Below are positions 1 to 55,023 of a stretch of 64,000 bases of DNA, in pieces; the first letter of the stretch is position 1; the number at the start of each line of letters is the position of its first letter. The stretch lies in the NCBI GenBank assembly GCA_947627155.1, contig CANQUX010000004.1, forward strand, positions 22,889-86,888. Reading direction: 5' to 3'. The DNA is from an uncultured Alphaproteobacteria bacterium (GTDB lineage: Bacteria; Pseudomonadota; Alphaproteobacteria; CAAHEQ01; UBA3637). Under the pieces are notes generated by a model that saw only the letters and a list, made by a program, of their open reading frames with translations, did not search any database and was not told where the DNA came from. Both the position numbers and the translations under genes were made by a program.

Positions 1-1207
1 AGAAATCTTAAAAATTGAAGAAACGGTCGAAAAAGAATTAAAAGAACTCGAAAAAAAACAAGCAAGCAATCAAAAAGCGGAAAAGAAACCGCAAAATCAG
101 CAGGCAGACCCTCAAAAAAATAAGCAGCAACAAACCGATTCTCAAAAAAACAACCAACCGAAAACCGAATCGGCACAAACAAAGGAAAGTCAAAAAACGG
201 CAGCTTCAAAAGTTGATGCCAAAGAAGAAAAAGCTGATGTTAAAGAAGAAAACATAGCCACCGTTACCGCCGAGGGCGATTTTATTGTGCCGACCTATAT
301 GCTTCCCGCTAAGGAAGATTTGGAAACGGCGCCGCAAAATAATCCCGCCGAAAATAAGGCATCGGAGGCACCTCAAAACGCACCGGATGCCGCGCAAAAC
401 GCGCCTGTCAATAAAGTTTTGCATCAATCAACGGTTAAAATCACGCAAACGGAGTTAACGCCCGTTGCCGAACAAATGGCCGTCGAGCGGTTTTTAACCG
501 GTAAAACCACCAAAACCATGAAAGCTTATAAAGAAGCGTTGGCGCGTCAAAAAGCGGCTCAAAAAGCCGAGAAAGCGCAAACGAAAGAGAACGGCGCAAG
601 TGAAAATGCCGCAAACGGCAGTGAAAATAAAGCGGATGCAACACAAAATAATGATATTGACGCTTTACTTGAAGATGAAACGTCAAAAGAGGCGAAAAAG
701 CCCAAAAAACGGTTGTTGTTGCCGTTGCGTCCGTTGCCTTCAAAAACACCGCCCGCCGAAGATTTGTCGGGAACGGAACCGCTCTTTAAAGTTGTTTCTT
801 CCACCATGGCGGATCAGGTGTTGAAAGATGCGCAAGATCAAACGCGCAGCTCGCTTTTGATGCCGCAAGATATTAAAGTGACGTTTTATCCCGATTCGGC
901 AGAATTTTCCGGACAAACCGTGAAATGGATTAAAGCTTTTGCTTTGCAGGCGTTGAATGATCCGCGTCGGGTGGTGGAAATTCGGCTCAGTCAATATAAT
1001 CCGATCATGCAGCAAAAACGACTTTCCGTTGTCCAACGGCTTTTAATGAACAGCGGCTTATCGGCACATCAAATTGTGGTCGATTATGTGAATCGTCCGG
1101 CAGACAGTTTAATTTTGCGAACCGTGGAAAAGGTTGAAACGGTTCAAAAACGCAAAATTGAAATGAAAAACGGTAAAGTAAAGGAAAATGAAACAATTAT
1201 CTGGTAA
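1..1207 (+). CDS. Hypothetical Lys/Gln-rich protein with its 5' end outside the window; the C-terminal ~90 aa are weakly OmpA/MotB-like. It is the first gene of the pilus-like operon.
   Basis: The frame starting at nt 2 is open from the window edge with no stop before the listed GTG at 287. The N-terminal part is low-complexity (KKQ...). The C-terminus, 'RLSVVQRLLMNSGLSAHQIVVDY', resembles an OmpA-like peptidoglycan-binding segment. It is tightly followed by the next gene on the same strand. Confidence 0.45.
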   Translation, partial: EILKIEETVEKELKELEKKQASNQKAEKKPQNQQADPQKNKQQQTDSQKNNQPKTESAQTKESQKTAASKVDAKEEKADVKEENIATVTAEGDFIVPTYMLPAKEDLETAPQNNPAENKASEAPQNAPDAAQNAPVNKVLHQSTVKITQTELTPVAEQMAVERFLTGKTTKTMKAYKEALARQKAAQKAEKAQTKENGASENAANGSENKADATQNNDIDALLEDETSKEAKKPKKRLLLPLRPLPSKTPPAEDLSGTEPLFKVVSSTMADQVLKDAQDQTRSSLLMPQDIKVTFYPDSAEFSGQTVKWIKAFALQALNDPRRVVEIRLSQYNPIMQQKRLSVVQRLLMNSGLSAHQIVVDYVNRPADSLILRTVEKVETVQKRKIEMKNGKVKENETIIW

Positions 1208-1241: not shown

Positions 1242-2168
1242 ATGAAGCAAAACTTACTTAAAAACACACTGACAATCGGTATTGCCGCTTGCGCATTCGG
1301 CGTTTTAAGCGCTTGTACGTCTTTGGGATCGTCCGAAAAAGAAGTTGTTGTCAGCGAAACAACATCGGCCGCCGCATCCAAACCGGTTTGCACATCGGAA
1401 CATGACGTTAATTGTATTGTGACTTATGAAGAGCCTGATTTGAATTTGTCGCAAGCGTATGCCGGTTATGCCATGAGTACGAACGCTTCATATCAAAGCG
1501 GCAGTGCGCCGATTTCGTTATCTGCACCGAACACGATTGCCGGCACGTCGGTTAAAGACAGAACGCGTCAAAAAGAATTGGCGCAACAACGAGCCGATTT
1601 GGCCTTGCAGCCCGTTTTAAGCGCCGATGTTCTTTGCGCGGGTGCCGATTGTGAGCAGGCATTGTTTAAAACGGAAATTGAAAAAACCATTCAAACAACC
1701 GTGTTGGAAAGTCAACCCGTTCCCGTAACGGTTAACGGACAAACGGTTATGGCCGCTCCGGCAGGACAAACGGCACAAGCGGCTCAGGTGGGACAAGCAG
1801 TTCAACCGGTACAAGCGGTACAAGCGGTACAAACGGTACAGCCGGCACAACCGGCGGAACCGCCCGTTATGTCCTTGAAAGAACGAATTGCTTACGGCGA
1901 AGAAGTGCATGATTGGGATGCGCCTGCCGGAGAAACATTGCGGAATTTGTTAATGCAATGGGGTGAACAATCCGGTTGGACGGTTGTTTGGAAAATGGAT
2001 CGCGATTATAATTTGGAAGCCGGCGTTGTTTTCCGCGGTAAGTTTACGGAAGTGGCCGCCGCTTTCATTCGCTCGTTTGCTCGGGCAACACCCGCGCCGA
2101 TCGGCACGTTCTATAAAGGAAACAGAGTTTTAGTCATTAACACGCAGGAGAATGATAATGCTGAATAA
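1242..2168 (+). CDS. Lipoprotein, PilL/TcpQ-like, a putative secretin-associated pilotin-type component of the type IVb pilus cluster.
   Basis: An RBS (AAAAGGAG) lies 8 nt upstream. The signal peptide has the lipobox 'LSAC'. It contains a Q/V/A repeat block (VQAVQAVQTVQ) and a C-terminal 'GW..VW...D' segment. Its position immediately 5' of the secretin gene matches R64 pilL-pilN order. Confidence 0.5.
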   Translation: MKQNLLKNTLTIGIAACAFGVLSACTSLGSSEKEVVVSETTSAAASKPVCTSEHDVNCIVTYEEPDLNLSQAYAGYAMSTNASYQSGSAPISLSAPNTIAGTSVKDRTRQKELAQQRADLALQPVLSADVLCAGADCEQALFKTEIEKTIQTTVLESQPVPVTVNGQTVMAAPAGQTAQAAQVGQAVQPVQAVQAVQTVQPAQPAEPPVMSLKERIAYGEEVHDWDAPAGETLRNLLMQWGEQSGWTVVWKMDRDYNLEAGVVFRGKFTEVAAAFIRSFARATPAPIGTFYKGNRVLVINTQENDNAE

Positions 2169-3804
2169 ATCAATGAAATGGAGTTTAATGGGTCTTTTAG
2201 CCGCCGCCGCCATGACGCTGTCGGCTTGTAATGATTATGTTGCCAAAACAAATGAAAAAATTGAAACCACGTTGGAACGTGTGGAAGATCATTTGCAACA
2301 GGCACAAATTCCCGATTTACCGGAACCCGTTGATACGGTGCGTACCAAAAACGATATTTGGTTGGGTACTCAAAGCGTGAAAATTTCCGAAGGCGATGCG
2401 TTGCCGGCAAATATGGAAGAAAAAGATTCCGTCACGCTCTCCATTGCCGAAGCAACCACGTTACCTACTTTGGCGCAGGAAATTACCGATATGACGGGCA
2501 TTACCGTTCGACTGGATAATTTAAAAGCCGAAAATGCCATTCCCACGGAAACCGTTCCGTTTAATTATACCGGTTCGCTCAGCGGCTTGTTAAATTATGC
2601 TTCAAACCGGTACGGCGTGTGGTGGCGGTATAAAGCGGGCATCATTACGTTCTATACGAAAGAAACGCGTGTCTTTAATATATATGCGTTGCCGACGGAA
2701 ACTTCTATTTCTAACTCGTTAAGCGGTGCCTCCATGGGCGATACGGGCGGCAGTTCCAGTTCAACCTTGTCGCAATCGGCCAATCTGGCTTTGTGGGATA
2801 ACATTGAACAAGGCTTACAACAGGTTGTCGGTGAAAACGGGCAGTTATCGTTCAGCCGCGTTGCCGGTACGGTGACCGTGACCGGCAGTCCGTTTGTTAT
2901 TCGCGAAGCCGCCGACTGGATTGCCAAGTTTAACGAAAAATTATCACGGCAGGTTGCCATTTCCGTGAAAGTGTTATCGGTTTCCGTTACGAATGCCGAT
3001 AACTACGGGTTGGATTTAACCGGTGTCTTTACAAACGATACCATTCAGGCAAACTATACCAGTCCGTTTACCATTGCCTCCGGCAGTACGGGTGCGGCAG
3101 CAGGTATGCTTTCCATGACGTTGTTAAAACCCAGCTCCAAGTGGAAAGACAGTAATGCCGTTATTCAGGCTTTCTCGTCGCAAGGTAAAACGGCGTTGGT
3201 TACCTCAGCCAGTGTGACCACACTTAATAATAAAGTGGCACCGATTCAAATTACCACACAACAAAACTATGTGAAAGAATCGAACGTGTCAACATCCGGT
3301 ACCGGTTCCGACAGAAGCGTTGATACCGATATGGAAACGGATACGTTGAATTACGGCTTTATGCTGGAAGTGTTGCCGCGTATTTTGGATCACGGTCGGT
3401 TGATTGTGATGTTCTCAATGAACTTAACCGATTTGGTTTCGTTGGAAACATTCTCGTCTGACGGTTCTTCTTCGGGCGGTACATATGATTACAGCGATGA
3501 ATCCGATTCGGAGGATACGGGTACATCAACGGGTGACCAGGAAAAAACGGTTGTCCAATTGCCGAAAATGCAAACCCGCGGCTTTGTTCAGGAAATTGCC
3601 ATGCGTTCGGGTTCAACATTGGTGTTAACAGGTTTCGAGCAAGTTCAAAATACCACGACGACAGGCGGTATCGGACAAGCCAAGATGGGTATTTTGGGCG
3701 GACAAGCTTATAGTGGCAATAATCGTGACGTGATGGTGATTTTATTAACACCGGAAGTGTTGGAATCGCCGTTATCTCCCGAATCGCGCATGAGAGACTT
3801 TTAA
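2158..3804 (+). CDS. Lipoprotein secretin of type IVb pilus systems (PilN/BfpB/TcpC-like).
   Basis: Lipobox 'LSAC' after an N-terminal signal peptide. The C-terminal ~250 aa have secretin-domain character ('LVTSASVTTLNNKVAPIQITTQQNYV' ... 'GSTLVLTGFEQ' ... 'DVMVILLTPEVL'). Size is 548 aa. The start was moved to the second ATG (2158) because AGGAG at 2146-2150 is too close to the ATG at 2152. Confidence 0.7.
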   Translation: MLNKSMKWSLMGLLAAAAMTLSACNDYVAKTNEKIETTLERVEDHLQQAQIPDLPEPVDTVRTKNDIWLGTQSVKISEGDALPANMEEKDSVTLSIAEATTLPTLAQEITDMTGITVRLDNLKAENAIPTETVPFNYTGSLSGLLNYASNRYGVWWRYKAGIITFYTKETRVFNIYALPTETSISNSLSGASMGDTGGSSSSTLSQSANLALWDNIEQGLQQVVGENGQLSFSRVAGTVTVTGSPFVIREAADWIAKFNEKLSRQVAISVKVLSVSVTNADNYGLDLTGVFTNDTIQANYTSPFTIASGSTGAAAGMLSMTLLKPSSKWKDSNAVIQAFSSQGKTALVTSASVTTLNNKVAPIQITTQQNYVKESNVSTSGTGSDRSVDTDMETDTLNYGFMLEVLPRILDHGRLIVMFSMNLTDLVSLETFSSDGSSSGGTYDYSDESDSEDTGTSTGDQEKTVVQLPKMQTRGFVQEIAMRSGSTLVLTGFEQVQNTTTTGGIGQAKMGILGGQAYSGNNRDVMVILLTPEVLESPLSPESRMRDF

Positions 3805-3815
3805 GGAGTTGACGA

Positions 3816-5144
3816 ATGGCAGAAGAGGCAATGAATAATCCCGCCGGAACGGTACCGGAAATCAATCCGGCCGCGCATGGCTCAATTACAATCGGACGGC
3901 GCGTATATGCCGTCGGGTTGCTGTGGCAGCCGTTGCAAAATTCAGATGATCCGCTGCCGGAAATTCGGGAAGCCATTGACAGTGATCCCGATGCCGATTT
4001 ATATTGCCTGCGGTCCACATCAACCCCGCAATACGGTATCGGCAAAAAAGCCATGGGGCATCATTCGGGTGAGCCGTCCGCGGCGGCAGCCGTTGCTTCA
4101 GCTTTGAATGAATATGTTTCCGTTGCTGCCGTGTTCCCCGTTAAAGAGGGGTGGTGGCTTCTGGCGGTCAGAAATGATTTAATTCTGTCCGAAGAAGATA
4201 TGCTTTTTGATACCGAGCAAGAGGCACAGGAAGCTTTTTATGCTTTAATGGCTTTGCCTGACTGGGATTTAAAAATTGCACCGGAGCATTGGGGTGTTGA
4301 AAAAGCGCGTCAAATCTCTTTGGAAACATTGATTAAAAAATCAGGAACCAAAGTGGCGTTGGAAGAGTTGGGAGCTGCAAAGAAAACGCAGTTCTTAACC
4401 GTTATCGCCATCGGGTTTTTAATTTTAATCGGTGTGTTGATTTATTTCCTTGTTTCGTTATGGAATTCGGTGTTTACGGAAGAAAAAATTGAAGCTGTTC
4501 CGATTCCCGAGGCTATTCAACCGGTTGAACCGACTCCCGAAAAACCGAAACCCTGGGAAAAAGTGCCGCAGTTGGATGTTTTTCTGCATAAGTGTTGGAA
4601 TAATGCTTATCAGTTGACGGCTTTAACCATTCCCGGTTGGCAAATCGGTGCCGTGAACTGTAACTTTCAGGGTTTGACGACCGGTTGGCATAAATCATGG
4701 GACAAAGCCGGCCGAATTGCGTGGCTCAAAGCTGCCTTAAACGAATATAAAATGTCAAGGGTAGATGTTAAATTGAATGATGACGGCGCAACCGCCAGCG
4801 GGCAATTGGCATTTACGGATATTCCGTTGGTTGCTTCCGTTCCGACCATTGAAGATCGGAAATTGTGGGAAGAATTAACCGATATTAAACAAGCTACAAA
4901 CATACAATTGAATTTTTCAAAACAAGCAGTGTTGGATCCGCCGGATAATCCTGACGGAACAAAACCTGCCAATCAGCAAGAGTATGTTTTTTACCAGTTT
5001 TCAATTTCGTCGCCATACACCCCGTTTGAATGGAAGACGTTCTTTGAAAAATTCCCGGGCTTGGAATTAACGGCTATCAGCTTTAATCCGGGTCTGGACG
5101 CTCAAGATAAATGGAAATATGAGGGAAGAATATATGCAAAATAG
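3816..5144 (+). CDS. PilO-like bitopic inner-membrane pilus assembly protein.
   Basis: RBS AAGGAG, then ATG at 3816. There is a single central TM segment ('FLTVIAIGFLILIGVLIYFLVSLW'). The ~440 aa size and its position after the secretin match the R64 pilN-pilO arrangement. No catalytic motifs were seen. Confidence 0.45.
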   Translation: MAEEAMNNPAGTVPEINPAAHGSITIGRRVYAVGLLWQPLQNSDDPLPEIREAIDSDPDADLYCLRSTSTPQYGIGKKAMGHHSGEPSAAAAVASALNEYVSVAAVFPVKEGWWLLAVRNDLILSEEDMLFDTEQEAQEAFYALMALPDWDLKIAPEHWGVEKARQISLETLIKKSGTKVALEELGAAKKTQFLTVIAIGFLILIGVLIYFLVSLWNSVFTEEKIEAVPIPEAIQPVEPTPEKPKPWEKVPQLDVFLHKCWNNAYQLTALTIPGWQIGAVNCNFQGLTTGWHKSWDKAGRIAWLKAALNEYKMSRVDVKLNDDGATASGQLAFTDIPLVASVPTIEDRKLWEELTDIKQATNIQLNFSKQAVLDPPDNPDGTKPANQQEYVFYQFSISSPYTPFEWKTFFEKFPGLELTAISFNPGLDAQDKWKYEGRIYAK

Positions 5145-6345: not shown

Positions 6346-6367
6346 AAAAGCATAAAGGGGATTATTG

Positions 6368-8563
6368 ATGAGACCGCCTTTTTTCGGAAACAGACCGAAT
6401 AAACTTCCGGAGTCACATGAGAGTCATCAGGAAACGGACGGAATGTCCAGAGAATATCTTGATGTTTCTCATATTGAGATTCCGGAAGCAGGCGGTTTTG
6501 CGGAAGAAGAGTTACCTGTTATTTCAGAAGTTTCCCCTTTTCCTTCATTTATTGGTGAAACATCCGGTAAAGAAAATTCTGTTGGCAGAAATAATCAAGC
6601 GGAAAAAAATAATGGGGTTATGGGGCAAACACCCGTTACTCAATCAGCGGGCAATTATAATGCGGCACAGGAAGCTCCTTATCGGAATGCTGCCGTTACA
6701 GCTCCGTCATACAGAAAAAAAACATCAGAGGAAAATGTTGATGTCAGCAATATGAGTGAAGCGGCGCAGGCACGCAGTAATTTATTTACCCCGCCCAAAG
6801 CACGAAATTTTGTAAAAATGACGGAACCGTTGTCTTCCTCTGTTCAAAAAGAAGAAAATAATCGGGAAAATTTGCATAAAGTTGTGCAGGAAGCTTTTTT
6901 AAAAAGCGATAAACCGACGAATGAAACGCAAGCCGCGGCTACACCGCAGCCGACTATTGCCGTTAATAAAGATTTTAATTCTCCCTCATTTTTAAAAGAT
7001 TTATTTGATAACGGCAATGTGTGTATTACGGCTTCCGGCGGTTCATTACCGATTAAAGATGAAACGCGTATGTTATTGGCGTTATTTTCAAACGGGCGTT
7101 TTTTTGTTTGCGAAACATATAAGTTTGACGGAAAAGTTTTAGGATTTGAATATTTAGCAAAAAAACGGCATTTGCAGATCGGAAAGCCGGAATATGTGCC
7201 GATGCCGATTTTGCAAAGCATTTATGAATATGCCACGCGTAACGGTTTAACGGAAGTTTCCGAAAGCGATAAAAATGAAGAGCAGGAGCAAGCACAGGCG
7301 CGTATGCAGCGTGACTTTGTGACCATTGTTTCGCGTGCGGCTGCCATGCATGTTTCCGATATTCATATTGTGGTTGCTGATCATACAACGGTTATGTTTC
7401 GGGCGAACGGGTTAATGCAAACGGAAATGGAATACAACAAAGATTGGGGTGAAAGTTTTGTGCGGGCGGCTTTTGCTTCTTCCGATATTTCCGATTCAAA
7501 CTATGCGCAAAATGAATATCAGGCAGCTCAAAAGTTGGGGCGAACGCCGCTCAGAGGATCGCACGGAAAGTTAGTGTTGCCGCGAAATATTTTAGGTATT
7601 CGTTTACAGTTTAACCCGATTGCATTTGGTACACGCTATGTGGTTATGCGGTTATTATATGCCGAAGAATCATCAAATGCTTCCACCGGTTTGGAAGCGC
7701 TCGGGTTTACGGAACGGGAGCTTGATTTTTTCTATCAGCTGCGGGGGGCACCGACCGGTATTACCATTATTTCCGGACCGACGGGTTCCGGTAAATCAAC
7801 AACCTTGCAACGAAATATGATTCAAATGTTGCAGGAACGCAATTATGAAATTAACTTAATTACGGTGGAAGATCCGCCGGAATATCCGATTCCGGGTGCC
7901 CGACAAATGCCGGTGACCAACGCATCCATTGAAGAGGCCAAAGAACGTGAGTTTACAAAAGCCTTGTCTGCGGCTCTTCGTTCCGACCCGGACAGTTTGA
8001 TGATCGGAGAGGTGCGTACCTTGTCGGCGGCCGATTTGGCTTTCCGTGGCGCTTTATCCGGACATAACGTGTGGACAACGCTTCATGCCAACAGTGCGCC
8101 GGCCATTTTAATGCGTTTAAAAGATTTGGGTGTGGAAGATTTTAAATTGCGTGACCCGGATATTGTCAAAGGTTTGTTGGCTCAGCGGTTGTTTCGTCGG
8201 CTTTGCCCCAAGTGTCGTGTGCCGGCAACACAACGGCTGAATGTGCCGTCTGTGCAACGGTTGCGGGAGGCCTTTGGTGATATTGGTGTTGAAAGTTCTT
8301 ATTTGCGCGGAAAAGGGTGTAAATATTGTGATTTCAGAGGGGTTAAAGGACGAATGTCCGTTGCGGAAATTATTTTGCCGGATGCGACTTTCCTTGATTT
8401 GGTTATGAAAGGGGAAACGAAGAAAGCAATTAACTATTGGATTAATGATTTAAACGGTATGACATTGCGGGAGGTTGCCATTTCCCATATGTTTAAAGGA
8501 ATTATTGATGTTGATGAAGTCGAACGGTGGACGGGCTTCTTAAATCAGATTGTAAACGCCTGA
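6368..8563 (+). CDS. GspE/PilB-family secretion ATPase (PilQ-like) with a long disordered N-terminal extension.
   Basis: Walker A 'SGPTGSGKSTT', Asp box 'ITVEDPPEY', Walker B 'DPDSLMIGEVR', His box 'GHNVWTTLHANSA', and tetracysteine 'CPKC...CKYC'. RBS AAAGGGGA before the ATG at 6368. The first ~320 aa are low complexity (S/N/E-rich). Confidence 0.85.
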   Translation: MRPPFFGNRPNKLPESHESHQETDGMSREYLDVSHIEIPEAGGFAEEELPVISEVSPFPSFIGETSGKENSVGRNNQAEKNNGVMGQTPVTQSAGNYNAAQEAPYRNAAVTAPSYRKKTSEENVDVSNMSEAAQARSNLFTPPKARNFVKMTEPLSSSVQKEENNRENLHKVVQEAFLKSDKPTNETQAAATPQPTIAVNKDFNSPSFLKDLFDNGNVCITASGGSLPIKDETRMLLALFSNGRFFVCETYKFDGKVLGFEYLAKKRHLQIGKPEYVPMPILQSIYEYATRNGLTEVSESDKNEEQEQAQARMQRDFVTIVSRAAAMHVSDIHIVVADHTTVMFRANGLMQTEMEYNKDWGESFVRAAFASSDISDSNYAQNEYQAAQKLGRTPLRGSHGKLVLPRNILGIRLQFNPIAFGTRYVVMRLLYAEESSNASTGLEALGFTERELDFFYQLRGAPTGITIISGPTGSGKSTTLQRNMIQMLQERNYEINLITVEDPPEYPIPGARQMPVTNASIEEAKEREFTKALSAALRSDPDSLMIGEVRTLSAADLAFRGALSGHNVWTTLHANSAPAILMRLKDLGVEDFKLRDPDIVKGLLAQRLFRRLCPKCRVPATQRLNVPSVQRLREAFGDIGVESSYLRGKGCKYCDFRGVKGRMSVAEIILPDATFLDLVMKGETKKAINYWINDLNGMTLREVAISHMFKGIIDVDEVERWTGFLNQIVNA

Positions 8564-8580
8564 TAAATAAGGAGAGATAA

Positions 8581-9708
8581 ATGGCTGAAAATGCAAAAAA
8601 GAAAGATACGAAAGCTTCGGCAGCAATCGGTTCGGGTGATATTTTCTTTTCAAGAATGATGGTGCGGTTATACACCTCGGACAGATTGGCTTTTTATTAT
8701 AAATTAAAAGCTTTGTTGCACAACCGTTTTTCTTTAATGGATGCTTTGGAGCGTATGTATCAAATTTATTCGAAGGAAGGGAAAAAACCAACGGAATCCA
8801 TGGCGGTTGCCATTACAACGTGGATGCATCAAATTCGAAACGGTGAAACATTTTCCGTGGCTTTGCGCGGGTGGGCGCCGTCAACGGAAGTGTTAATGTT
8901 ATCCGTGGGTGATGTTTCGAATTTGGAAGATGCGTTGGCGAATACCATTAAGGTTGTGGAAGGAATGAACCGAATGAAAGAACCGGTGTTTTCAGCGGTT
9001 TCTTACCCGTTATTCTTGATGGTTATGGTTATTTTGCTTATTTACGGTGTCGGTGCTTATATGGTGCCGCCGATGGTTGATGCCGTTCCGAACCTGATCT
9101 GGACGGGAACGGCAAAATCGTTGGTTGATTTGTCTTATTTTGTGCGGGATCATCCGCTTCCTCTGTTTTTAACATTACCGATTATAATTTTTCTTATTAT
9201 TCTGACTTTCCCGCGTTGGAAACGAGAATCACGTGCGGTTGCCGATAAGTTTCCGCCATGGTCGATTTATCGAATTTTTATCGGTGTCGGTTGGTTGTTA
9301 TCATTATCGGCGCTTGTTCGGGCAGGAACACCTGTTTCAAAAGCCATGCGTTCGTTAAGAGGTGATGCTTCTCCTTATTTGCTTTATCGAATTGACAGAG
9401 CATTGAGCTATGTGAACAACGGTGATAACTTGGGTGATTCATTGTATAAAACAAAATTGAATTTTCCTGATGAAGAAGTTGTCGGTGATTTAAGAATTTA
9501 TGCCGAGTTGGATAACTTCCCGGAAGCCTTAACGCGTTTATCCGATGATTGGTTGGAAAGCTCTATTAAAGATATTGAGAAAAAAGCCGGGGTGTTAAAC
9601 GGTGTGGCTATTTTGTTGATTGCCGGTATTGTGGCTTGGGCCGTTATGGGAACATTTGATATGCAAGAGCAAATGGTCAACGGTATGGGCTTGGGCGGCG
9701 GTCGTTAA
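8581..9708 (+). CDS. GspF/PilC-family inner-membrane platform protein (PilR-like).
   Basis: RBS AAGGAGAG then ATG. 375 aa with three hydrophobic segments and a cytoplasmic N-domain. It lies immediately downstream of the ATPase, as in R64 pilQ-pilR and gspE-gspF. Confidence 0.6.
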   Translation: MAENAKKKDTKASAAIGSGDIFFSRMMVRLYTSDRLAFYYKLKALLHNRFSLMDALERMYQIYSKEGKKPTESMAVAITTWMHQIRNGETFSVALRGWAPSTEVLMLSVGDVSNLEDALANTIKVVEGMNRMKEPVFSAVSYPLFLMVMVILLIYGVGAYMVPPMVDAVPNLIWTGTAKSLVDLSYFVRDHPLPLFLTLPIIIFLIILTFPRWKRESRAVADKFPPWSIYRIFIGVGWLLSLSALVRAGTPVSKAMRSLRGDASPYLLYRIDRALSYVNNGDNLGDSLYKTKLNFPDEEVVGDLRIYAELDNFPEALTRLSDDWLESSIKDIEKKAGVLNGVAILLIAGIVAWAVMGTFDMQEQMVNGMGLGGGR

Positions 9709-9790: not shown

Positions 9791-9812
9791 CCTGTTATTT
9801 GAGGGAATGGTT

Positions 9813-14890: not shown

Positions 14891-14905
14891 ATAAAGGCAA
14901 AAATA

Positions 14906-26590: not shown

Positions 26591-26623
26591 GCGTTGCATT
26601 AAAGGTACGTTTAATTGTATACT
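26591..26623 (+). promoter_or_regulatory. Conserved promoter box of pilin-adhesin gene A.
   Basis: TTGCAT (26594-26599), then 17 nt, then GTATAC or TATACT. The spacer TAAAGGTACGTTTAATT is itself a near-palindrome. The 26-mer is identical to the one at 53549-53574. Confidence 0.45.
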
Positions 26624-26650
26624 GTTCGTATAATGAAAGGGAGTCGGAAA

Positions 26651-28012
26651 ATGACCATGCAATCAAAAAAACAAATTCAAAATCAATCCCAAAGTGGCCG
26701 TTCAATGGTTGAAATGCTGGGTGTGTTGGCGATTATTGCTATTCTGTCCATCGGCGGGATTGTCGGATTCCGATTGGCAATGAATTATTATCAAGCCAAT
26801 CAAATTGCCCATGAAATGAATATCATGCGCACCGATGCGCAGATAAAAATCGCCCAAGGCGCGGAGGAATTAACCCTCGGTGATCCGTATGACAGCGGAA
26901 ATATTCAATTTAACGGATATAAAACCGATTTTGATTGTCTTTATATGGAAACGGAAACGTCAGAACCCGAACTTGCTTCCTGTGCCGTTGCAAATGCCTA
27001 TTATATTGAAATGCAAAAAATTCCCGAAGGCATTTGCAAACCGCTGGCGAATTTAATTGATAAAATGGATAACGAAATTGCTTTTTATATCAATGGGAAA
27101 TCGGTTGATGCGGCAGAGGGAGAAAAAGGCGCTTGCCTTGGAGAAGAGAATATATTAACGGTGATCTTCGGTGCCGATTCGGATTCGGAGGCGATTAAGT
27201 GTAATGATGATCCCGATTGTCCCGATAACTTACCGATTTGTCATGAACATTTGTGTGTGGAGTGTGAAACGGATGAAGATTGCCCCTATAACACACAATA
27301 TTGTGAAGGAAATGCTTGTCAAACGTGTCCCGATAATCAAATATGGGGCGGTGCAGGAAAAGGTTGTGTGGAATGTTTAACATATGAAGATTGCACAGAT
27401 CCCGAAAAACCCAAATGTGAGCAAACTACAAACAAGTGCGTAGCGTGTCCGCCGAAATCGGTCTTTTATGAGGGCGAATGCTATGAATATGAATGTCGCA
27501 CCAACGAAGATTGCGCTGATAAAGGTGATGGCTATTATTGTCATGCCGAAGACGGAGATCGCACGTCTGACGGAGGCACGAACTATTCCGAATGGATAGA
27601 CAAACCGGGACAATATCTCGGCGGGAAATGCAAAAATGCCAGTCAAAGCAAAATGACGACGCCTGATGATGTTCCCTATGTGGTTTCTCAAGAAAAAATG
27701 GATTGGTGGTCTGCACAGCGTTTTTGTGAAGTACTTCATATGAGAACCGCCTCACGAAGAGATTTCGGTTGTGAAAATACAATAACTGATACTGATTGTG
27801 CTACTATAGATTGTTGTAAAAATGAAAAACTTGAATATCTTGATGAACATCATTTTCCGCGTGTCCCTGTTTGGTTAGAGTTAGTTACAGATCCGACTGA
27901 CAGATTATATGGACGAGCTATCAGTTTTGGTACAAAAAATAACACAAATATAGATTCGGATTTTCCGGCTTGGGGGGAAACAACGTCAAATTATGCTTTC
28001 TGTCAACCTTAA
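26651..28012 (+). CDS. Modular minor pilin/tip-adhesin candidate A. It consists of a class-III signal pilin domain, a Cys-rich stalk, and a lectin-like C-terminal domain.
   Basis: RBS AAAGGGAG 7 nt before the ATG at 26651. Leader 'MTMQSKKQIQNQSQSG|RSMVEMLGVLAIIAILSIGG' with Glu at +5. The middle region has repeated 'C..DEDCP' modules. The C-terminus, 'MDWWSAQRFCEVLHMRTASRRDFGC', is conserved with the paralog at 53605. Confidence 0.7.
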   Translation: MTMQSKKQIQNQSQSGRSMVEMLGVLAIIAILSIGGIVGFRLAMNYYQANQIAHEMNIMRTDAQIKIAQGAEELTLGDPYDSGNIQFNGYKTDFDCLYMETETSEPELASCAVANAYYIEMQKIPEGICKPLANLIDKMDNEIAFYINGKSVDAAEGEKGACLGEENILTVIFGADSDSEAIKCNDDPDCPDNLPICHEHLCVECETDEDCPYNTQYCEGNACQTCPDNQIWGGAGKGCVECLTYEDCTDPEKPKCEQTTNKCVACPPKSVFYEGECYEYECRTNEDCADKGDGYYCHAEDGDRTSDGGTNYSEWIDKPGQYLGGKCKNASQSKMTTPDDVPYVVSQEKMDWWSAQRFCEVLHMRTASRRDFGCENTITDTDCATIDCCKNEKLEYLDEHHFPRVPVWLELVTDPTDRLYGRAISFGTKNNTNIDSDFPAWGETTSNYAFCQP

Positions 28013-29366: not shown

Positions 29367-29807
29367 TTAGCTTTGTTTGAATTCAACAGCGCTCATTTTT
29401 GCAGAGGCGCATCCGTCATTTTTACCCAAAATGCTGGCACCGGCTTTGCAAACGGCATCTGTCGGAAATTCAATATCTAATTTTACAATACCTTTTTTCA
29501 AATCTTCTTCTGAAGAAGAGGTATAAGTAATTTTAGCGCCACCGGGGGTTGTACTGCTGCCGGAATTAATTAAACCGGAACTGGCTAACGTGGGGGTTGA
29601 CCAATTATTGCCCATGGCGCTCGCCGTTTGATAGCTGGAATAAATAACCACGGCAAATTTATTGGCCATATCCAGTGCTTCATTGGCGCGATAACGATTC
29701 ATTGCCATGGAATAACCGGCAATACCGCCAATGGATAAAACGCCGATAATGGCTAAAACGCCCAGCATTTCAACCATTGACCGGCCTGATTCGTTTGTTC
29801 TTTTCAT
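29367..29807 (-). CDS. Type IV pilin, major-pilin-like (PilS-like).
   Basis: Leader 'MKRTNESG|RSMVEMLGVLAIIGVLSIGGIAGY' with Glu at +5. The C-terminus 'CKAGASILGKNDGC' is a disulfide-bonded D-region pair. 146 aa. An AAGGA RBS lies before the second ATG; the alternative start is 29822. Confidence 0.7.
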   Translation of the reverse strand: MKRTNESGRSMVEMLGVLAIIGVLSIGGIAGYSMAMNRYRANEALDMANKFAVVIYSSYQTASAMGNNWSTPTLASSGLINSGSSTTPGGAKITYTSSSEEDLKKGIVKLDIEFPTDAVCKAGASILGKNDGCASAKMSAVEFKQS

Positions 29808-32398: not shown

Positions 32399-33067
32399 AT
32401 GGCCGAAATAAATGAAAAAAATTTGAAGCAATCAGAAAGAATGATTTCCTGTCGGCTGAAACTCGGTTGTCGCGATGCCATGGATTTTTATAAAAAATTC
32501 AGTCAGAACGGTTTATTGTTTTCTTATCCGAAATATCAAAAGCATGAAAGCGGTGAGCGTCGGCTGAATGAAAAATCAGCCATTACTTATGCTAAAATTT
32601 TTAACGTGGATTGGATGTGGTTACTTTACGGCGAAGTGGAAAAATATGCCGATACGGTTTCCATTGATGTGGTTGATGCCGTTGCCTGTTGCGGAAACGG
32701 ACATGTAAATTTTGAAACGCATATTCTCGGTCAGCAAATGTTAACGGTTTCGGCATTGCATCAAATAACGAGTGTGAATCCGGTGCATATTAAAATTTTA
32801 AAAGTTGTCGGCGACAGTATGGAACCGACCATCAGCAATAATGATTTTGTTTGGGTGGATATTTCCTGTCATACGCCGACGGGTGACGGTATTTATTTGT
32901 TTTGTATCGGGGATATGTTGGTTGTCAAGCGCGTACAAATCAATCCGTTTGATCAATCAGTACAGATTTTATCGGACAATGCAAAATATCAGCCGATTCG
33001 GGCAGAAAATTATCAAACCGTTAAAACGGTAGGGCGTGTGATTTCTTTTACCAAAATGATCGGATAA
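32399..33067 (+). CDS. S24 peptidase-family repressor (LexA/phage CI-like).
   Basis: The C-terminal domain has 'VVGDSMEPTI' (the Ser nucleophile) and 'VVKRV' (the Lys). The N-terminal ~80 aa are HTH-like. There is no adjacent integrase or phage genes. Confidence 0.65.
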   Translation: MAEINEKNLKQSERMISCRLKLGCRDAMDFYKKFSQNGLLFSYPKYQKHESGERRLNEKSAITYAKIFNVDWMWLLYGEVEKYADTVSIDVVDAVACCGNGHVNFETHILGQQMLTVSALHQITSVNPVHIKILKVVGDSMEPTISNNDFVWVDISCHTPTGDGIYLFCIGDMLVVKRVQINPFDQSVQILSDNAKYQPIRAENYQTVKTVGRVISFTKMIG

Positions 33068-33070
33068 CAA

Positions 33071-33871
33071 ATGGATTGGTTACGTCGCTTTATTTTATTA
33101 AGTGTTTATTCGATTGCACCGCCGTTTTATATGATTTGCGCTACCTTTTTGCTTGATGATTACAGCGGGCGAAATAACTTCTTGCAAGAGCATATTTTTC
33201 CTTTTTTAAGCGTAACGATTTGGATTGCCCTTGTTTGTGCTTTCGGAGCCAATCATTTGTGGCGTCGCTATCGGCAAAAACATTTGTTGCCCGGCGAAAA
33301 AGTGAAAGATTATCCGTTGATTTTTGTATTTGTCTATTCCGTTTATTTTTTGCTGATCGGTTGCTTTTTTTGGGGAACGGATTGTTTATATGCGGCGTTC
33401 AGCGGATTATCGGTTGTGCTTTGGGTGCTGATTTTTCATGAAAATATGCGTCGGTGCGTGGAATATTTGCCGGCCGTTGAAAAGTTTTATTTTTATGTGG
33501 TAGCGTTTGTTTATCCGATTTTCATTTTAATGATGAGTGATGCGTTGTCTCTTATTGAAAATACGCCGTGGCATATGACAATTTTACTGTCACCCATTGC
33601 CTATGTACCCGGGGTAACGGTGTTTGCGTGTGCCTGTTTAATGTTAAAAATAGTTTGCCGTATGCGAGATAGTGCCCTCAAAAAAAACGTTTTCGGGTTA
33701 ACGCAGGCTATTTTGTTATTGCTGATCGGTGATGTAAGCGGCTGTCTTTATTTGGTGCCGTATGTCGGGCGCGGTATTTTTCTTGTCGGTTTTGTCATGA
33801 GTTTCAGCGTTTATTTAATTGAGTTATTTTATCATTATAAGCGGCATCAGCGTCTTAAAATGGGAATTTGA
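33071..33871 (+). CDS. Polytopic membrane protein, hypothetical.
   Basis: 266 aa with about 7 hydrophobic segments. 'LDDYSG' is present near the N-terminus and 'LIGDVSG' near the C-terminus. It starts 4 nt after the repressor gene. Confidence 0.45.
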   Translation: MDWLRRFILLSVYSIAPPFYMICATFLLDDYSGRNNFLQEHIFPFLSVTIWIALVCAFGANHLWRRYRQKHLLPGEKVKDYPLIFVFVYSVYFLLIGCFFWGTDCLYAAFSGLSVVLWVLIFHENMRRCVEYLPAVEKFYFYVVAFVYPIFILMMSDALSLIENTPWHMTILLSPIAYVPGVTVFACACLMLKIVCRMRDSALKKNVFGLTQAILLLLIGDVSGCLYLVPYVGRGIFLVGFVMSFSVYLIELFYHYKRHQRLKMGI

Positions 33872-37774: not shown

Positions 37775-37916
37775 TTACACTCTCCTTAATAAATTCTTAA
37801 TAATTGTATCACAAAAAAGAATCCCTGTCAACGAAAAAAAGATAACTGCTTTTAGTGTTTGTTTTCATTAAAAAAATCCGACAATAATGCCGGATTTTTT
37901 ATCGCTTTTTAAGGCT

Positions 37917-38153
37917 TTATTTTTTAAATAAATTGCAATGGCAATGCCCCATTGTGGCAATTTCCTGCTCATGCTCGCCGCACGGACAAAAACCGCGTGA
38001 AACATCACACGGGCAATGCCCCTGACATGCGTTAATGCACCGATTGATAATTTTATCGGCAAACGGTGTGAGTTGATATCCTTTCGCTTTGGCATAAAGT
38101 TCCAAGGCGTGCTTAAAGTGATTGTTGTTGTTTAAAATTTCATCTTGTTCCAT
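37917..38153 (-). CDS. Small Cys-rich protein resembling the ferredoxin-thioredoxin reductase catalytic chain.
   Basis: 'CQGHCPC ... CPCGEHE ... CHC' matches the CPC/CHC spacing of FtrC-like proteins. 78 aa. Confidence 0.4.
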   Translation of the reverse strand: MEQDEILNNNNHFKHALELYAKAKGYQLTPFADKIINRCINACQGHCPCDVSRGFCPCGEHEQEIATMGHCHCNLFKK

Positions 38154-38168
38154 TTTTTTTCTCCTTGA

Positions 38169-38675
38169 TTATAATATAAAATGAATGCCGTATAAAACAA
38201 ATGAAGCATATAGACCGGCAATAACATCATCTGCCATCACACCGAATGCATTATGTGTTTTTCTGTCAATAATGGAGGCCGGCCACACTTTCACAATGTC
38301 AAAAAAACGAAATAACGCGAATCCGATAAAATAATCATACCATATTAAACCGCTTTGTGCAACCCATAAAAAGGTGAGCAGTTGCCCCACTGTTTCATCA
38401 ATGACCACATAGCCCGGATCGGTTGCTTTTTGCGCTTTTAAAACAACGCTTGTTGCTTGCTGCCCGATGAAAAACAAAAGAATACCGGAAATGAGAATGC
38501 CCCAAAAACCGAGCGGTGCCAGCACAAAAACAAGCGGTAACGTGAAAAACGAACCGGCCGTGCCGGGCGCTTTGGGAGATAACCCCGAAAAGAACCATGT
38601 TGCCACGGCAAAAGCCGCTTTTATTTTCATCGGCTGATTTTTAATGTCGGCAAAATGAACGCGTTGCTTTGTCAT
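38169..38675 (-). CDS. pgpA: Phosphatidylglycerophosphatase A.
   Basis: 'LSPKAPGTAGSFFTLPL' is the PgpA signature. 168 aa membrane protein. Confidence 0.8.
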   Translation of the reverse strand: MTKQRVHFADIKNQPMKIKAAFAVATWFFSGLSPKAPGTAGSFFTLPLVFVLAPLGFWGILISGILLFFIGQQATSVVLKAQKATDPGYVVIDETVGQLLTFLWVAQSGLIWYDYFIGFALFRFFDIVKVWPASIIDRKTHNAFGVMADDVIAGLYASFVLYGIHFIL

Positions 38676-38681
38676 AACCGA

Positions 38682-40028: not shown

Positions 40029-40040
40029 GGCTTTTCCCGT

Positions 40041-42128: not shown

Positions 42129-42187
42129 TTATTCTCCTTGACATAAATATGGTTCTATTATAGCACATTTTTACGGCTTGTCAAACG

Positions 42188-42823: not shown

Positions 42824-42991
42824 GTTGTTTTTTCCTCCCTCGGATATTTTTTAAAAATTTTTTGACCGTTTCAACGGTTGTTTCTTTCAGTATAAGCATA
42901 AATTTTAAAAAATCTACTAAAAAGTGTTGTCTTTTTTAAAAATATGGTGTATTATGGTAGTATAAGGTTAATTATTTAAGGGGAAAAATCA

Positions 42992-44515: not shown

Positions 44516-44541
44516 TAACGCGATAAAAAAGAGGGCAGACG

Positions 44542-45876: not shown

Positions 45877-45891
45877 GGAGAAGGAGAAAAT

Positions 45892-53580: not shown

Positions 53581-53604
53581 ATTTGCATTGAAAGGAAGCG
53601 AAAA

Positions 53605-55023
53605 ATGAGCAATAAAACAAGAAAAAAACAAATCGAAAATCAAACTCAACAAGGCCGTTCAATGGTTGAAATGCTCGGGGTGCTGGCTATTATCGGTGTT
53701 ATTTCAATCGGTGGCATTGCCGGTTACAGAATGGCCATGAATCGATATCAAGCGAATCAAATTGCGAATGAAATCAATCTCATGCGTACCGATGCGAAAA
53801 TGAAAGTTGCGCGCGGCGTGGAATTATTGCTCGGTGAGCCGTATGACGGTGACGACGGGCATTTGAATTTTAATGCAAATTATGGCGTTGCGGTTAAATT
53901 TGAGGAAATAGGAACAGACACGCCGGGTGAAACGGAAAAGGGCTATTCGTTTACGTTATCAAACATTCCTGAAGGGGTGTGTAAACCGTTGGTAGCCTTG
54001 TTAGATAACATGGACGACACGGCTGATATAAAAATAGGTGACAAAAGTTATTATGATGAGCAGGATAATTTCTGCGGTGAAACGAATGAAGTAATGGTCG
54101 CCTTCTCAACCAAAGATATAGGCGGGGCGAGCAGCGGAAGCGGAGAGGAGCCGGAGGTAACAGACCCGGATCAAGGCGATGAGCCGCATGAATGTGATCC
54201 GGAGACATGCCCGGGAGAATGCAACGAAGAAGGAGTATGTGAATGTCCGGAAGGAAGCCATTTAAAAGGCGATGAGTGCGTGAGTTGTTCGGGCGGAAAG
54301 GTATGGGACGAAGGTAGTAATGATTGCGTTTGTCCGGCGGGAGCAGAAAAATCCGGAGAAGATGGCGAAGAATGTGCGTGCAGTACCGAGAAACCGCATT
54401 GGAATGGTACCGAATGTACGGCGTGTCCGAACGGCAGCACTTGGGATAGTACAACCGGCGAATGCAAATGTGAAGGTAATAAAGTCTGGAAAGAATCAGT
54501 GAGTGGAGAAGATAAATGTGTAGAAATTGTCGGAGAATGCGAGAGCAATGCCGATTGCGGGCCGGGAGAGTATTGTTACATATATTATGGATATGATTGT
54601 CATGACGGCCAGGAATTTCAATCCGGCAAATTTGGTGCTGGAAGATACGATTATACGAGTGAATGCCGGAATGCGCGCAAAGATGCAGTAATAGGAGAAA
54701 AGACTGGTTTTGCATTAGGTTGGCCGGAAGAAACGAAAAGTAATTCTAAATATATGGATTGGTGGAGCGCCGGGCGATTCTGTGAGGCATTAGGAAGGAA
54801 ACAAGCAACGCGGGCAAGCATCGGGTGTGGCGAGGTGTCGTCCGGAGGCACATGTGACAGTCAGATAAGAAAGGATTTGTACGAGGATTTTGGTAGCGGT
54901 TATGTTTGGTTGTACGATATGTGCAATGATTCTTCCTGCGCCGCGTACTACGTTCTCCTCTATAGCGGTGGCGTCTACAACTACAATCGCTACACCGGCA
55001 ACACCTACGCCTTATGTGAGTGA
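53605..55023 (+). CDS. Modular minor pilin/tip-adhesin candidate B (paralog of 26651-28012).
   Basis: Leader 'MSNKTRKKQIENQTQQG|RSMVEMLGVLAIIGVISIGGIAGY'. The N-terminal ~65 aa are ~75% identical to A. The shared pilin core is 'IPEGVCKPLVALLDNMD'. The Cys-rich stalk is divergent ('CDPETCPGECNEEGVCECPEGSH...'). The conserved C-terminus is 'MDWWSAGRFCEALGRKQATRASIGC'. Confidence 0.7.
   Translation: MSNKTRKKQIENQTQQGRSMVEMLGVLAIIGVISIGGIAGYRMAMNRYQANQIANEINLMRTDAKMKVARGVELLLGEPYDGDDGHLNFNANYGVAVKFEEIGTDTPGETEKGYSFTLSNIPEGVCKPLVALLDNMDDTADIKIGDKSYYDEQDNFCGETNEVMVAFSTKDIGGASSGSGEEPEVTDPDQGDEPHECDPETCPGECNEEGVCECPEGSHLKGDECVSCSGGKVWDEGSNDCVCPAGAEKSGEDGEECACSTEKPHWNGTECTACPNGSTWDSTTGECKCEGNKVWKESVSGEDKCVEIVGECESNADCGPGEYCYIYYGYDCHDGQEFQSGKFGAGRYDYTSECRNARKDAVIGEKTGFALGWPEETKSNSKYMDWWSAGRFCEALGRKQATRASIGCGEVSSGGTCDSQIRKDLYEDFGSGYVWLYDMCNDSSCAAYYVLLYSGGVYNYNRYTGNTYALCE

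What the first reader, a model, noticed from the sequence alone, without database searches (positions are those of the whole stretch)
29367..29807. Three pilin genes share a noncanonical class-III signal peptide, G|RSMVEML, with Arg at +1
The PilS-like pilin (29367-29807, minus strand) and the two long pilin-adhesins (26651-28012 and 53605-55023) all have G at -1, R at +1 and E at +5. Canonical type IVa and IVb pilins have F, M, L or W at +1, which is the residue that is N-methylated. An Arg at +1 implies a dedicated prepilin peptidase with altered specificity, or an unmethylated N-terminus. No A24 peptidase gene is recognisable in the window.
Basis: seen in the sequence. Interest (0 to 1): 0.6.

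Follow-up and report, generated by a model that had tools for sequence, protein, structure and literature searches.

The report
Gut-bacterial type IVb pilins starting with arginine
The three genes are real type IVb pilus subunits, one small filament subunit and two long lectin-tipped adhesins, from an uncultured gut alphaproteobacterium, and they belong to a very large unstudied pilin radiation whose mature end is predicted always to begin with arginine instead of the usual hydrophobic residue.

Summary
ORFs 29367-29807(-), 26651-28012(+) and 53605-55023(+) all carry G|RSMVEMLGVLAII, with Gly at -1, Arg at +1 and Glu at +5.

This is not chance or a local oddity.
- About 500 relatives were inspected, and every one with an intact N-terminus has G|RS[MTI][VIL]E[MI]L.
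- Arg is encoded by five codons and Ser by both codon families, so selection acts on the amino acids.
- An exhaustive profile search finds 8467 representatives at 50% identity (613 at E<=1e-30).
- All named hits are uncultured gut Alphaproteobacteria.

The window itself encodes the matching machine at 287-9708. It is an R64/Tfp7-type type IVb operon: TcpQ, secretin, PilO2, ATPase and platform. In sister lineages, Arg+1 pilins that hit Pfam PilS and Bundlin sit directly after the platform gene. Their profile matches BfpA (2e-17), TcpA and S. Typhi PilS, and the TcpA alignment puts Arg opposite Met1.

The long proteins are modular pilins: a pilin module, a Cys-rich stalk and a C-type-lectin-like head.

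No A24 peptidase was found in the window or in 1.3 Mb of clade DNA. Whole genomes could not be searched, so the peptidase is unidentified. Most likely it is an ordinary A24 enzyme encoded elsewhere. This is a new variant of a known kind.

The parts
29367..29807 (-). Small pilin, 146 aa. It has an 8-residue leader MKRTNESG, and the predicted mature protein of 138 aa starts RSMVEML. A C-terminal Cys120-Cys133 pair is invariant. It is a probable filament subunit.
   Evidence: AF2 gives pLDDT 81.7 with alpha1 at residues 7-65. The best PDB fold hit is the ETEC type IVb pilus 9iuf, prob 0.94. hhalign to PilS/Bundlin-type sisters gives 99.8% over residues 2-70.
29763..29786 (-). Codons for G(-1) R(+1) S M V E(+5) M L of the small pilin. 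The predicted cleavage lies between 29784 and 29783.
   Evidence: The register is supported by the TcpA alignment of sister proteins and by the Geobacter pilin alignment.
26651..28012 (+). Long modular pilin 1, 453 aa. The motif G|RSMVEML is at 26696-26719. The protein has a pilin module, Cys-rich repeats and a C-terminal domain homologous to that of long2.
   Evidence: (35% identity to long2 over 431 aa).
53605..55023 (+). Long modular pilin 2, 472 aa. The motif G|RSMVEML is at 53653-53676. It has alpha1 plus a pilin head (residues 21-168), a low-confidence linker, a Cys-rich beta-hairpin stalk (~200-310) and a C-type-lectin-like head (~310-472, pLDDT >90).
   Evidence: AF2. Foldseek: TCP 8uhf prob 0.98, ETEC T4b 9iuf 1.00, PilS Typhi 3fhu 0.60; snake-venom C-type lectin-like 1jwi/1iod/1ixx 0.94-0.97; Legionella Lcl C-terminal domain 8q4e 0.84.
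287..1207 (+). 3' part of the first operon gene. The product is a 450-aa Lys/Gln-rich exported protein of unknown role, cut by the window start.
1242..2168 (+). TcpQ-family lipoprotein, a secretin partner that takes the PilL/TcpQ2 position.
   Evidence: PF10671, E 2e-17.
2152..3804 (+). Secretin (PilN-like).
   Evidence: PF00263. 28-30% identity to the Bosea and IncI PilN proteins.
3816..5144 (+). PilO2, the hallmark protein of R64-variant type IVb machines.
   Evidence: PF06864, E 8e-29, full length; PMC3984277.
5119..6345 (+). 403-aa exported coiled-coil protein in the PilP position. It has no family hit.
   Evidence: It is conserved in the 18 related loci that cover this position.
6365..8563 (+). 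Assembly ATPase (PilQ-like) with a ~300-aa N-terminal extension.
   Evidence: PF00437, E 5e-68. 39% identity to the Bosea pil ATPase and 28% to IncI PilQ.
8581..9708 (+). Platform protein (PilR-like).
   Evidence: PF00482. 20 related loci were found, all from gut Alphaproteobacteria MAGs.

Best explanation
The three ORFs are prepilins of a chromosomal type IVb pilus of the R64 thin-pilus / Burkholderia Tfp7 variant, in an uncultured animal-gut alphaproteobacterium.

Shown:
- Each has a class III signal peptide, [EQ]-x-G|R-S-M-V-E-M-L-G-V-L-A-I-I-G-V-L-S, followed by a long alpha1 helix.
- The matching assembly machine is encoded at 287-9708.
- In sister lineages, pilins with the same leader lie directly behind the platform gene. 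Those sisters are sequence homologues of BfpA, TcpA and PilS.
- The two long proteins carry a pilin module, a Cys-rich stalk and a C-type-lectin-like head.

Inferred:
- The prepilins are inserted into the inner membrane. The leader is removed after Gly-1 on the cytoplasmic face by an A24-family prepilin peptidase encoded elsewhere in the genome, as in PAPI-1 and Tfp7.
- The mature subunits begin with Arg1 and are polymerised by the PilQ-like ATPase and PilR-like platform, then pass through the secretin.
- The 146-aa protein is a major, or alternative major, subunit.
- The long proteins are minor pilins that place a lectin-like adhesin on the pilus. This is functionally like R64 PilV, CofB/TcpB or the modular pilins of Streptococcus sanguinis. 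Many differently tipped paralogues replace a shufflon.

Speculative:
- Arg1 lies one helical turn from Glu5 (i, i+4). Its guanidinium could neutralise Glu5 in the membrane and in the filament core, the role usually ascribed to the (methylated) N-terminal amine. That would explain why Arg1 is invariant.
For: - Motif and register.
- Codon diversity at Arg and Ser.
- Machine in the window.
- The operon is conserved in 20 related MAG loci.
- Arg+1 pilins lie in the operon next to the platform gene in L056, L138, L152, L160-L163.
- These in-operon pilins carry precomputed Pfam PF08805 (PilS) and PF05307 (Bundlin).
- Their profile hits BfpA 1zwt at E 2.1e-17, TcpA 8uhf at 2.9e-6 and PilS 1q5f at 1.7e-5. 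M14/V15/E16 align to TcpA L3/L4/E5, which puts Arg at +1.
- The window's small pilin aligns to them at hhalign 99.8% over about 70 residues.
- AF2 and Foldseek give type IVb pilin hits for both models and C-type-lectin-like hits for the long one.
- IncI PilS (G|WGIMEQ), IncI PilV (G|WASLEI) and Bosea PilV (G|LTLIET) share the G-1/E+5 register.
- R64-type operons without pilU have precedent: PMC3984277.
Against: - No prepilin peptidase was found. None is in the window, none is in 24 pil operons of the clade, and none is in 1.32 Mb of partly redundant clade DNA. Whole genomes could not be searched.
- Cleavage, its exact site and the state of the N-terminus are untested.
- The window proteins themselves fall below the Pfam N_methyl and TIGR02532 cut-offs. 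They give no PilS or Bundlin hit.
- Fold matches are weak in E-value, 0.009-0.1.
- The small pilin has an 8-residue leader and a 138-aa mature part, which is atypical for type IVb major pilins.
- The Arg1-Glu5 idea rests on spacing alone.
Confidence: 0.78

Rival explanations
1. Arg+1 marks substrates of a dedicated, co-evolved prepilin peptidase. This could be a specialised A24 subfamily, perhaps without the methylase domain, or a non-A24 enzyme. Such an enzyme would insulate this pilin repertoire from other peptidases, and the mature N-terminus would not be N-methylated.
For: - Arg+1, Ser+2 and [EQ] at -3 are invariant across thousands of proteins. This fits a tight enzyme-substrate fit.
- No peptidase lies in any of the operons seen, although BFP, TCP and R64 each carry their own.
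- No A24-like ORF was found in 1.32 Mb of clade DNA.
Against: - Known prepilin peptidases depend on Gly-1 and tolerate changes elsewhere (PMC4471445).
- The sampled DNA is a biased, small part of each genome, so failing to find a gene there says little.
- PAPI-1 and Tfp7 show that a peptidase outside the operon is ordinary.
- No alternative protease candidate is linked to the pilins. MarC adjacency is limited to the three closest relatives, and the 8-TM orphan at 33071-33871 has no GxGD motif or family hit.
Confidence: 0.15
2. The cleavage site is not Gly|Arg. Processing occurs after Ser+2 (G-R-S|M-V-E-M-L), as in archaeal class III signals with [KR]-[GAS] before the cut. The mature protein would then start with Met, as in TcpA, and Glu would sit at +3.
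For: The tripeptide R-S-M fits the archaeal-type consensus of a basic residue at -2, a small one at -1 and a hydrophobic one at +1 (my own knowledge of PibD/FlaK substrates). Position -2 relative to Gly is not basic here.
Against: - The G-1/E+5 spacing is exactly that of bacterial pilins.
- Alignments to TcpA and Geobacter pilin put Arg opposite residue 1 and Glu opposite Glu5.
- Homologous R64-type pilins keep the same register.
- The sharp onset of invariance is at Gly, with a hypervariable leader before it.
Confidence: 0.04
3. They are not filament subunits. They would instead be membrane-anchored or secreted proteins that merely use a pilin-like signal anchor. This could resemble pseudopilins of a secretion system, or archaeal-bindosome-like surface lectins that are never polymerised into long pili.
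For: - The long proteins are mostly adhesin-like passenger domains.
- No filament has been observed.
- JGI named one relative 'pseudopilin PulG'.
Against: - The only type IV filament machine seen is a type IVb pilus machine with a secretin and PilO2.
- Sister proteins are homologues of major pilins BfpA, TcpA and PilS.
- Some lineages also carry a PilT-like ATPase, which is typical of pili.
- No T2SS-specific genes were seen.
Confidence: 0.03

Closest known systems
R64/IncI thin pilus (PilS major pilin, PilV tip adhesins, PilL-PilR machine)
   Same: The machine parts match: secretin PilN, PilO2 (PF06864), ATPase PilQ and platform PilR. The prepilin register G-1/E+5 is the same. Both have a small filament pilin plus long adhesin pilins with variable C-termini.
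   Different: - +1 is Trp in IncI PilS and PilV, and Arg here.
- There is no pilU peptidase, no pilT transglycosylase and no shufflon or rci recombinase in the operon. Adhesin diversity comes from many separate genes.
- The system is chromosomal, in Alphaproteobacteria.
- The window's pilin genes are scattered 17-45 kb from the operon.
- The window's small pilin has no detectable PilS domain.
Burkholderia pseudomallei Tfp7 and Pseudomonas aeruginosa PAPI-1 pili (R64-variant operons lacking pilU)
   Same: Both are R64-variant operons without their own prepilin peptidase. Tfp7 has TcpQ2 in place of PilL (PMC3984277), as here.
   Different: Those hosts have other type IV systems whose peptidase (PilD) does the job. 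No other system or peptidase has been seen yet for this clade. Whether those pilins have Arg+1 was not examined here.
Bundlin BfpA (EPEC), TcpA (V. cholerae) and PilS (S. Typhi) type IVb major pilins
   Same: Sister Arg+1 pilins of the clade are sequence homologues, with 1zwt at 2e-17, 8uhf at 3e-6 and 1q5f at 2e-5. They carry Pfam Bundlin and PilS. Both AF2 models have type IVb pilins as best fold hits.
   Different: - +1 is Leu in BfpA and Met in TcpA (for TcpA; BfpA from my own knowledge).
- Those systems carry their own peptidase, BfpP or TcpJ.
- The window's own small pilin is shorter and has diverged beyond HMM detection after residue ~70.
Modular pilins (Streptococcus sanguinis PilB/PilC; CofB/TcpB of ETEC and V. 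cholerae)
   Same: All have an N-terminal pilin module fused to a C-terminal binding module, here one of lectin-like fold. They are thought to be displayed on the pilus for adhesion (PMC8179133 abstract).
   Different: The module here is a C-type-lectin-like domain on a Cys-rich EGF-like stalk. This combination was not seen among the solved pilins returned by the fold search. The ligand is unknown.
Tad/Flp (type IVc) and archaeal pilins
   Same: These are precedents for non-hydrophobic or variable +1 residues and for peptidases without the methylase domain (PMC10191384; PMC4471445).
   Different: They are different machines (TadA/B/C, FlaI/J) with much shorter or unrelated pilins. No Tad genes were seen here.

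Membership tests
Type IV pilin (class III signal peptide) | Hydrophilic leader ending in Gly-1 | tested here: met
   MKRTNESG|...QNQSQSG| and ...ENQTQQG|. The leader is hypervariable and Gly is invariant in homologues.
Type IV pilin (class III signal peptide) | Glu at +5 inside a ~21-residue hydrophobic tract that forms alpha1-N | tested here: met
   RSMVE(+5)MLGVLAIIGVLSIGGIAGY. AF2 predicts a helix at residues 7-65 in the small pilin and 21-70 in long2.
Type IV pilin (class III signal peptide) | Hydrophobic +1 residue (Phe, Met, Leu or Trp in bacterial T4a, T4b and T2SS), commonly N-methylated | tested here: not met
   Arg at +1 in all members. The methylation state is not testable with these tools.
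Type IV pilin (class III signal peptide) | Score above the curated cut-off of PF07963 N_methyl or TIGR02532 | tested here: not met
   PF07963 gives 14.9, 14.2 and 12.2 bits against a cut-off of 21.2. TIGR02532 gives 10.1 against 16.3.
Type IV pilin (class III signal peptide) | Cleavage by an A24 prepilin peptidase | not testable with these tools
   No A24 gene lies in the window or in 1.32 Mb of clade loci. Whole genomes could not be searched.
Type IVb major pilin family (Pfam PF08805 PilS, PF05307 Bundlin) | HMM match to PilS or Bundlin | tested here: not met
   The window proteins give no hit at E<=1. Sister proteins with the same leader do match, and their profile hits BfpA, TcpA and PilS. 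The window's small pilin is linked to them only over residues 2-70.
Type IVb major pilin family (Pfam PF08805 PilS, PF05307 Bundlin) | Type IVb pilin fold | tested here: inconclusive
Type IVb major pilin family (Pfam PF08805 PilS, PF05307 Bundlin) | Long leader (~15-30 aa) and large mature protein (~180-200 aa) | tested here: not met
   The small pilin has an 8-aa leader and a 138-aa mature part. The long pilins have 16-17-aa leaders. Sister in-operon pilins are 190-210 aa with 10-13-aa leaders.
R64 thin-pilus variant type IVb system | Operon with secretin PilN, PilO2 (PF06864), ATPase PilQ, platform PilR, and PilL or TcpQ | tested here: met
   Window 1242-9708. The operon is conserved in 20 MAG loci.
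R64 thin-pilus variant type IVb system | In-operon pilS, pilT, pilU (A24 peptidase) and pilV with a shufflon | tested here: not met
   The operon ends at the platform gene and a MarC-family gene follows. pilU is absent from all clade operons seen. In sister lineages pilS-like genes are in the operon.
Modular (adhesin-carrying) minor pilins | N-terminal pilin module plus an independently folded C-terminal binding module | tested here: met
   The AF2 domain layout and separate Foldseek hits to pilins and to C-type-lectin-like or Lcl domains. Binding itself is not testable here.

The most novel reading that the evidence does not exclude
The invariant Arg1 reflects a different solution to the two chemical problems of pilin N-termini. 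Under this reading, these pilins are matured by a specialised peptidase, or by one that is not an A24 enzyme at all, which requires Arg at +1. Arg1 then pairs with Glu5 in place of the N-methylated amine, giving a filament core chemistry not yet seen in any type IV filament.
Probability: 0.15. Interest if true: 0.75.

Novelty: new variant of a known kind. Interest (0 to 1): 0.5.

Why it matters
Residue 1 of a type IV pilin sits at the cleavage and methylation site, and later in the buried core of the filament next to Glu5. The role of N-methylation is still called a mystery (PMC10191384). A natural radiation with an invariant charged Arg1 offers a ready-made test of what residue 1 and its methylation are for, and of what prepilin peptidases really recognise. 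The radiation counts 8467 representatives at 50% identity, of which 613 have E<=1e-30, and it spans animal and human gut samples.

There are practical consequences too.
- Of the homologues inspected that carry a source name, the relatives of the window's small pilin (eight) are all called hypothetical protein. Among the operon-linked sisters, two are called 'type 4 pilus major pilin', one hypothetical and one 'pseudopilin PulG'. None of the long-pilin relatives listed carries a name.
- Standard pilin motif models score them below cut-off, and some gene calls cut off the leader.
- Pili and lectin-tipped adhesins of common gut Alphaproteobacteria are therefore being overlooked.
- The many C-type-lectin-like tip pilins per genome point to glycan-directed adhesion in the gut.

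Tried and rejected
1. Hunt for the prepilin peptidase.
- I ran Pfam and NCBIfam on all sizeable window ORFs.
- I ran a strict GxGD[VAILMFT][KR] motif scan, a hydrophobicity scan that also looked for bare GxGD, and further hydrophobicity scans.
- I ran phmmer with IncI PilU against ORFs of 163 sequences (the window plus 162 loci), 1.32 Mb.
- I read Pfam tables of 11 contig neighbourhoods (one search found nothing on record).
- Result: none found. The tools cannot fetch whole MAGs, so absence from the genome is not shown.

2. MarC-family gene (9807-10424) as a hidden operon member. Rejected, because it adjoins the operon only in the three closest relatives.

3. The 8-TM orphan at 33071-33871 and an M50B-like protein (L024) as alternative proteases. 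There is no GxGD motif, no family hit and no conserved linkage.

4. DNA-level explanations for the shared 5' ends, such as gene conversion or a recombination site. A 22-nt identical core exists among the three window genes. Across the clade, however, every codon varies synonymously, so selection is on the protein.

5. Direct sequence homology of the small pilin to solved pilins. There are no significant hits, and no match on plasmids.

7. Literature. There is no paper containing RSMVEML, and nothing on pili of RF32-type gut Alphaproteobacteria.

Full report
**Observation**

The three ORFs are present as described, and a six-frame scan finds the motif nowhere else in the window.

- The small gene starts at 29807 (MKRTNESG|RSMVEML...). 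That start has an AAGGA ribosome-binding site upstream, and it is the start used by homologues.
- The long genes start at 26651 and 53605.
- All three read G(-1) R(+1) S M V E(+5) M L G V L A I I.
- A fourth long paralogue lies on the same contig outside the window.

**More than chance, and more than a local quirk**

- Database searches with the small pilin, a long pilin and an operon-linked sister each returned thousands of hits: 7606, 408 and 7693 at E<=1e-3.
- Of the listed proteins, every one with an intact N-terminus has G|RSM[VIL]E[MI]L.
- An exhaustive profile search of 1.84 billion cluster representatives gave 8467 hits at E<=1e-3 and 613 at E<=1e-30.
- Of the 148 new representatives among the top 150, 140 show the motif. 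The other 8 are gene calls that begin at Met+3.
- In fetched DNA, Arg is written with CGT, CGG, CGC, CGA and AGA, Ser with TCA, AGC and AGT, and Gly with all four codons. The amino acids are therefore under selection, not a DNA element.
- Position -3 is E or Q, and position -2 is variable.
- Leaders range from 7 residues to about 24 at the 95th percentile, and some long-pilin gene calls extend much further upstream of the motif.

**Organism**

Twenty loci with 68-96% identical platform proteins all come from 'uncultured Alphaproteobacteria bacterium' MAGs of rabbit, yak, sheep, roe deer and buffalo gut. A degenerate DNA pattern for the motif also pulls contigs labelled human gut metagenome.

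Source names are sparse and inconsistent.
- The eight named relatives of the window's small pilin are all 'hypothetical protein'.
- Among the operon-linked sisters, two are 'type 4 pilus major pilin', one is hypothetical and one is 'pseudopilin PulG'.
- None of the long-pilin relatives listed carries a name.

**The machine**

| Position | Gene product |
|---|---|
| 287-1207 (gene cut by window start) | 450-aa exported protein |
| 1242-2168 | TcpQ-family lipoprotein |
| 2152-3804 | secretin |
| 3816-5144 | PilO2 (PF06864, full length) |
| 5119-6345 | 403-aa coiled-coil protein |
| 6365-8563 | T2SSE ATPase |
| 8581-9708 | T2SSF platform |

PF06864 defines the R64 thin-pilus variant. A TcpQ2 in place of PilL, together with no pilU, is the Burkholderia Tfp7 arrangement (PMC3984277). 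The closest annotated relatives are a Bosea megaplasmid pil cluster (ATPase 39% identical) and IncI plasmid pil operons.

**Link between pilins and machine**

- In the window's sublineage the operon ends at the platform gene and the pilin genes are scattered.
- In sister lineages one to four Arg+1 pilins of 190-210 aa follow the platform gene directly. They sometimes come with a bundlin-like membrane protein and a PilT-like second ATPase (L056, L138, L152, L160-L163).
- These in-operon pilins carry Pfam PilS and Bundlin.
- A profile of them hits BfpA (1zwt, 2.1e-17), TcpA (8uhf, 2.9e-6) and S. Typhi PilS (1q5f, 1.7e-5).
- In the TcpA alignment M-V-E pairs with L3-L4-E5, which places Arg at +1.
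- The window's small-pilin family aligns to them with 99.8% hhalign probability, but only over the first ~70 residues.
- Its globular part has diverged beyond sequence detection.

**Structures**

- AF2 of the small pilin (74-sequence alignment, pLDDT 81.7) gives a 59-residue alpha1 and a small head.
- The head bears the two Cys residues that are invariant in the alignment.
- Its only meaningful PDB hit is the ETEC type IVb pilus (9iuf, prob 0.94, E 0.1).
- AF2 of long2 (pLDDT 78.6) shows alpha1 plus a pilin head, a disordered linker, a Cys-rich beta-hairpin stalk and a confident C-terminal domain.
- For long2, Foldseek hits type IVb pilins: TCP at 0.98, ETEC at 1.00 and PilS at 0.60.
- It separately hits C-type-lectin-like proteins at 0.94-0.97 and the Legionella Lcl C-terminal domain at 0.84.
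- E-values are weak, so the fold assignments are supportive rather than decisive.

**The peptidase**

No A24 gene was found in any of the following:
- the window;
- any of the 24 clade operons seen (20; L160-L163);
- 1.32 Mb of partly redundant clade loci.

This sampling is biased toward pilin and pil neighbourhoods and covers only a small part of each genome. The tools do not allow a whole-MAG search, so 'no peptidase in the genome' is not established. PAPI-1 and Tfp7 show that R64-type operons can rely on a peptidase encoded elsewhere.

**Interpretation of Arg+1**

- The reviews read here state that Gly-1 is the critical determinant of cleavage and that Glu5 is dispensable for it.
- They also state that methylation is frequent but not universal and that its role is unknown. 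Some peptidases, such as TadV, lack the methylase domain (PMC4471445; PMC10191384).
- Arg+1 therefore does not by itself demand a new enzyme or exclude methylation of the alpha-amine.
- What does need explaining is its invariance. One inference is co-evolution with the clade's peptidase.
- Another inference comes from the i/i+4 spacing. Arg1 could pair with Glu5 and neutralise it in the bilayer and the filament core.
- Neither idea is tested.

**Verdict**

The feature is real, strongly selected and apparently undescribed (no literature hit). It sits inside a known kind of system. I rate it a new variant of a known kind, with moderate interest (0.5). The interest would rise if whole-genome searches showed a special peptidase or none at all.

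Noticed in passing
window 52590-53130 and 55095-55530: The long2 adhesin gene is bracketed by arrays of REP-like palindromic units with core TTATTTTCGGCGGGAAGTG. There are 5 copies in the window, all of them here, against 0.03 expected. It is also bracketed by a 72-nt inverted pair at 53059-53130 / 55095-55166 that is 90% complementary. This could be a mobile or invertible cassette, or just intergenic REP elements.
   Followed up: partly
window 36137-47952: Seven consecutive ORFs have no Pfam or NCBIfam family: 545, 448, 695 and 211 aa on the minus strand, and 507, 444 and 686 aa on the plus strand. The last three are polytopic membrane proteins with roughly 8, 6 and 11 hydrophobic segments. 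No homologues were found in the other fetched loci.
   Followed up: partly
L004 8011-8373 (-), about 0.4-0.75 kb upstream of window position 1: A 120-aa TrbC/VirB2-family (type IV secretion pilin-like) gene lies just upstream of, and divergent from, the pil operon.
   Followed up: no
window 14186-16578: Three tandem ankyrin-repeat proteins (234, 216 and 341 aa). Ankyrin and Sel1 proteins recur near pilin genes in related MAGs, which hints at a host-associated lifestyle.
   Followed up: no
window 33071-33871: An orphan 266-aa protein with 8 predicted transmembrane segments lies directly after an S24/LexA-like gene (32399-33067), about 3.3 kb from the small pilin. It has no family hit and no GxGD motif.
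   Followed up: partly
L152, L160-L163 (sister lineages): The same operon retains in-operon PilS/Bundlin-type Arg+1 pilins (up to four in tandem). It also has a bundlin-like protein with an uncleaved N-terminal anchor and a 320-aa PilT-like ATPase. The window's sublineage has lost these from the operon.
   Followed up: yes
database proteins P0414, P0437, P0447, P0460, P0477, P0485, P0509, P0525: The gene calls for these pilins start at Met+3 (MIEMLGV... or MVEMLGV...). The leader, Gly-1 and Arg+1 are therefore missing from the deposited protein, which is a systematic annotation error for this family.
   Followed up: partly
window 26600-26650 and 53560-53604: The two long pilin genes share a conserved upstream stretch (AAGGTACGTTTAATT...), which suggests common regulation.
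   Followed up: no
L009-L015 and contig lengths: Relatives carry many pilin paralogues per genome. There are four 145-aa genes within 7 kb in L009 and three in tandem in L013. At least six long modular pilins share one 192-kb contig. This looks like a repertoire for antigenic or binding diversity.
   Followed up: partly
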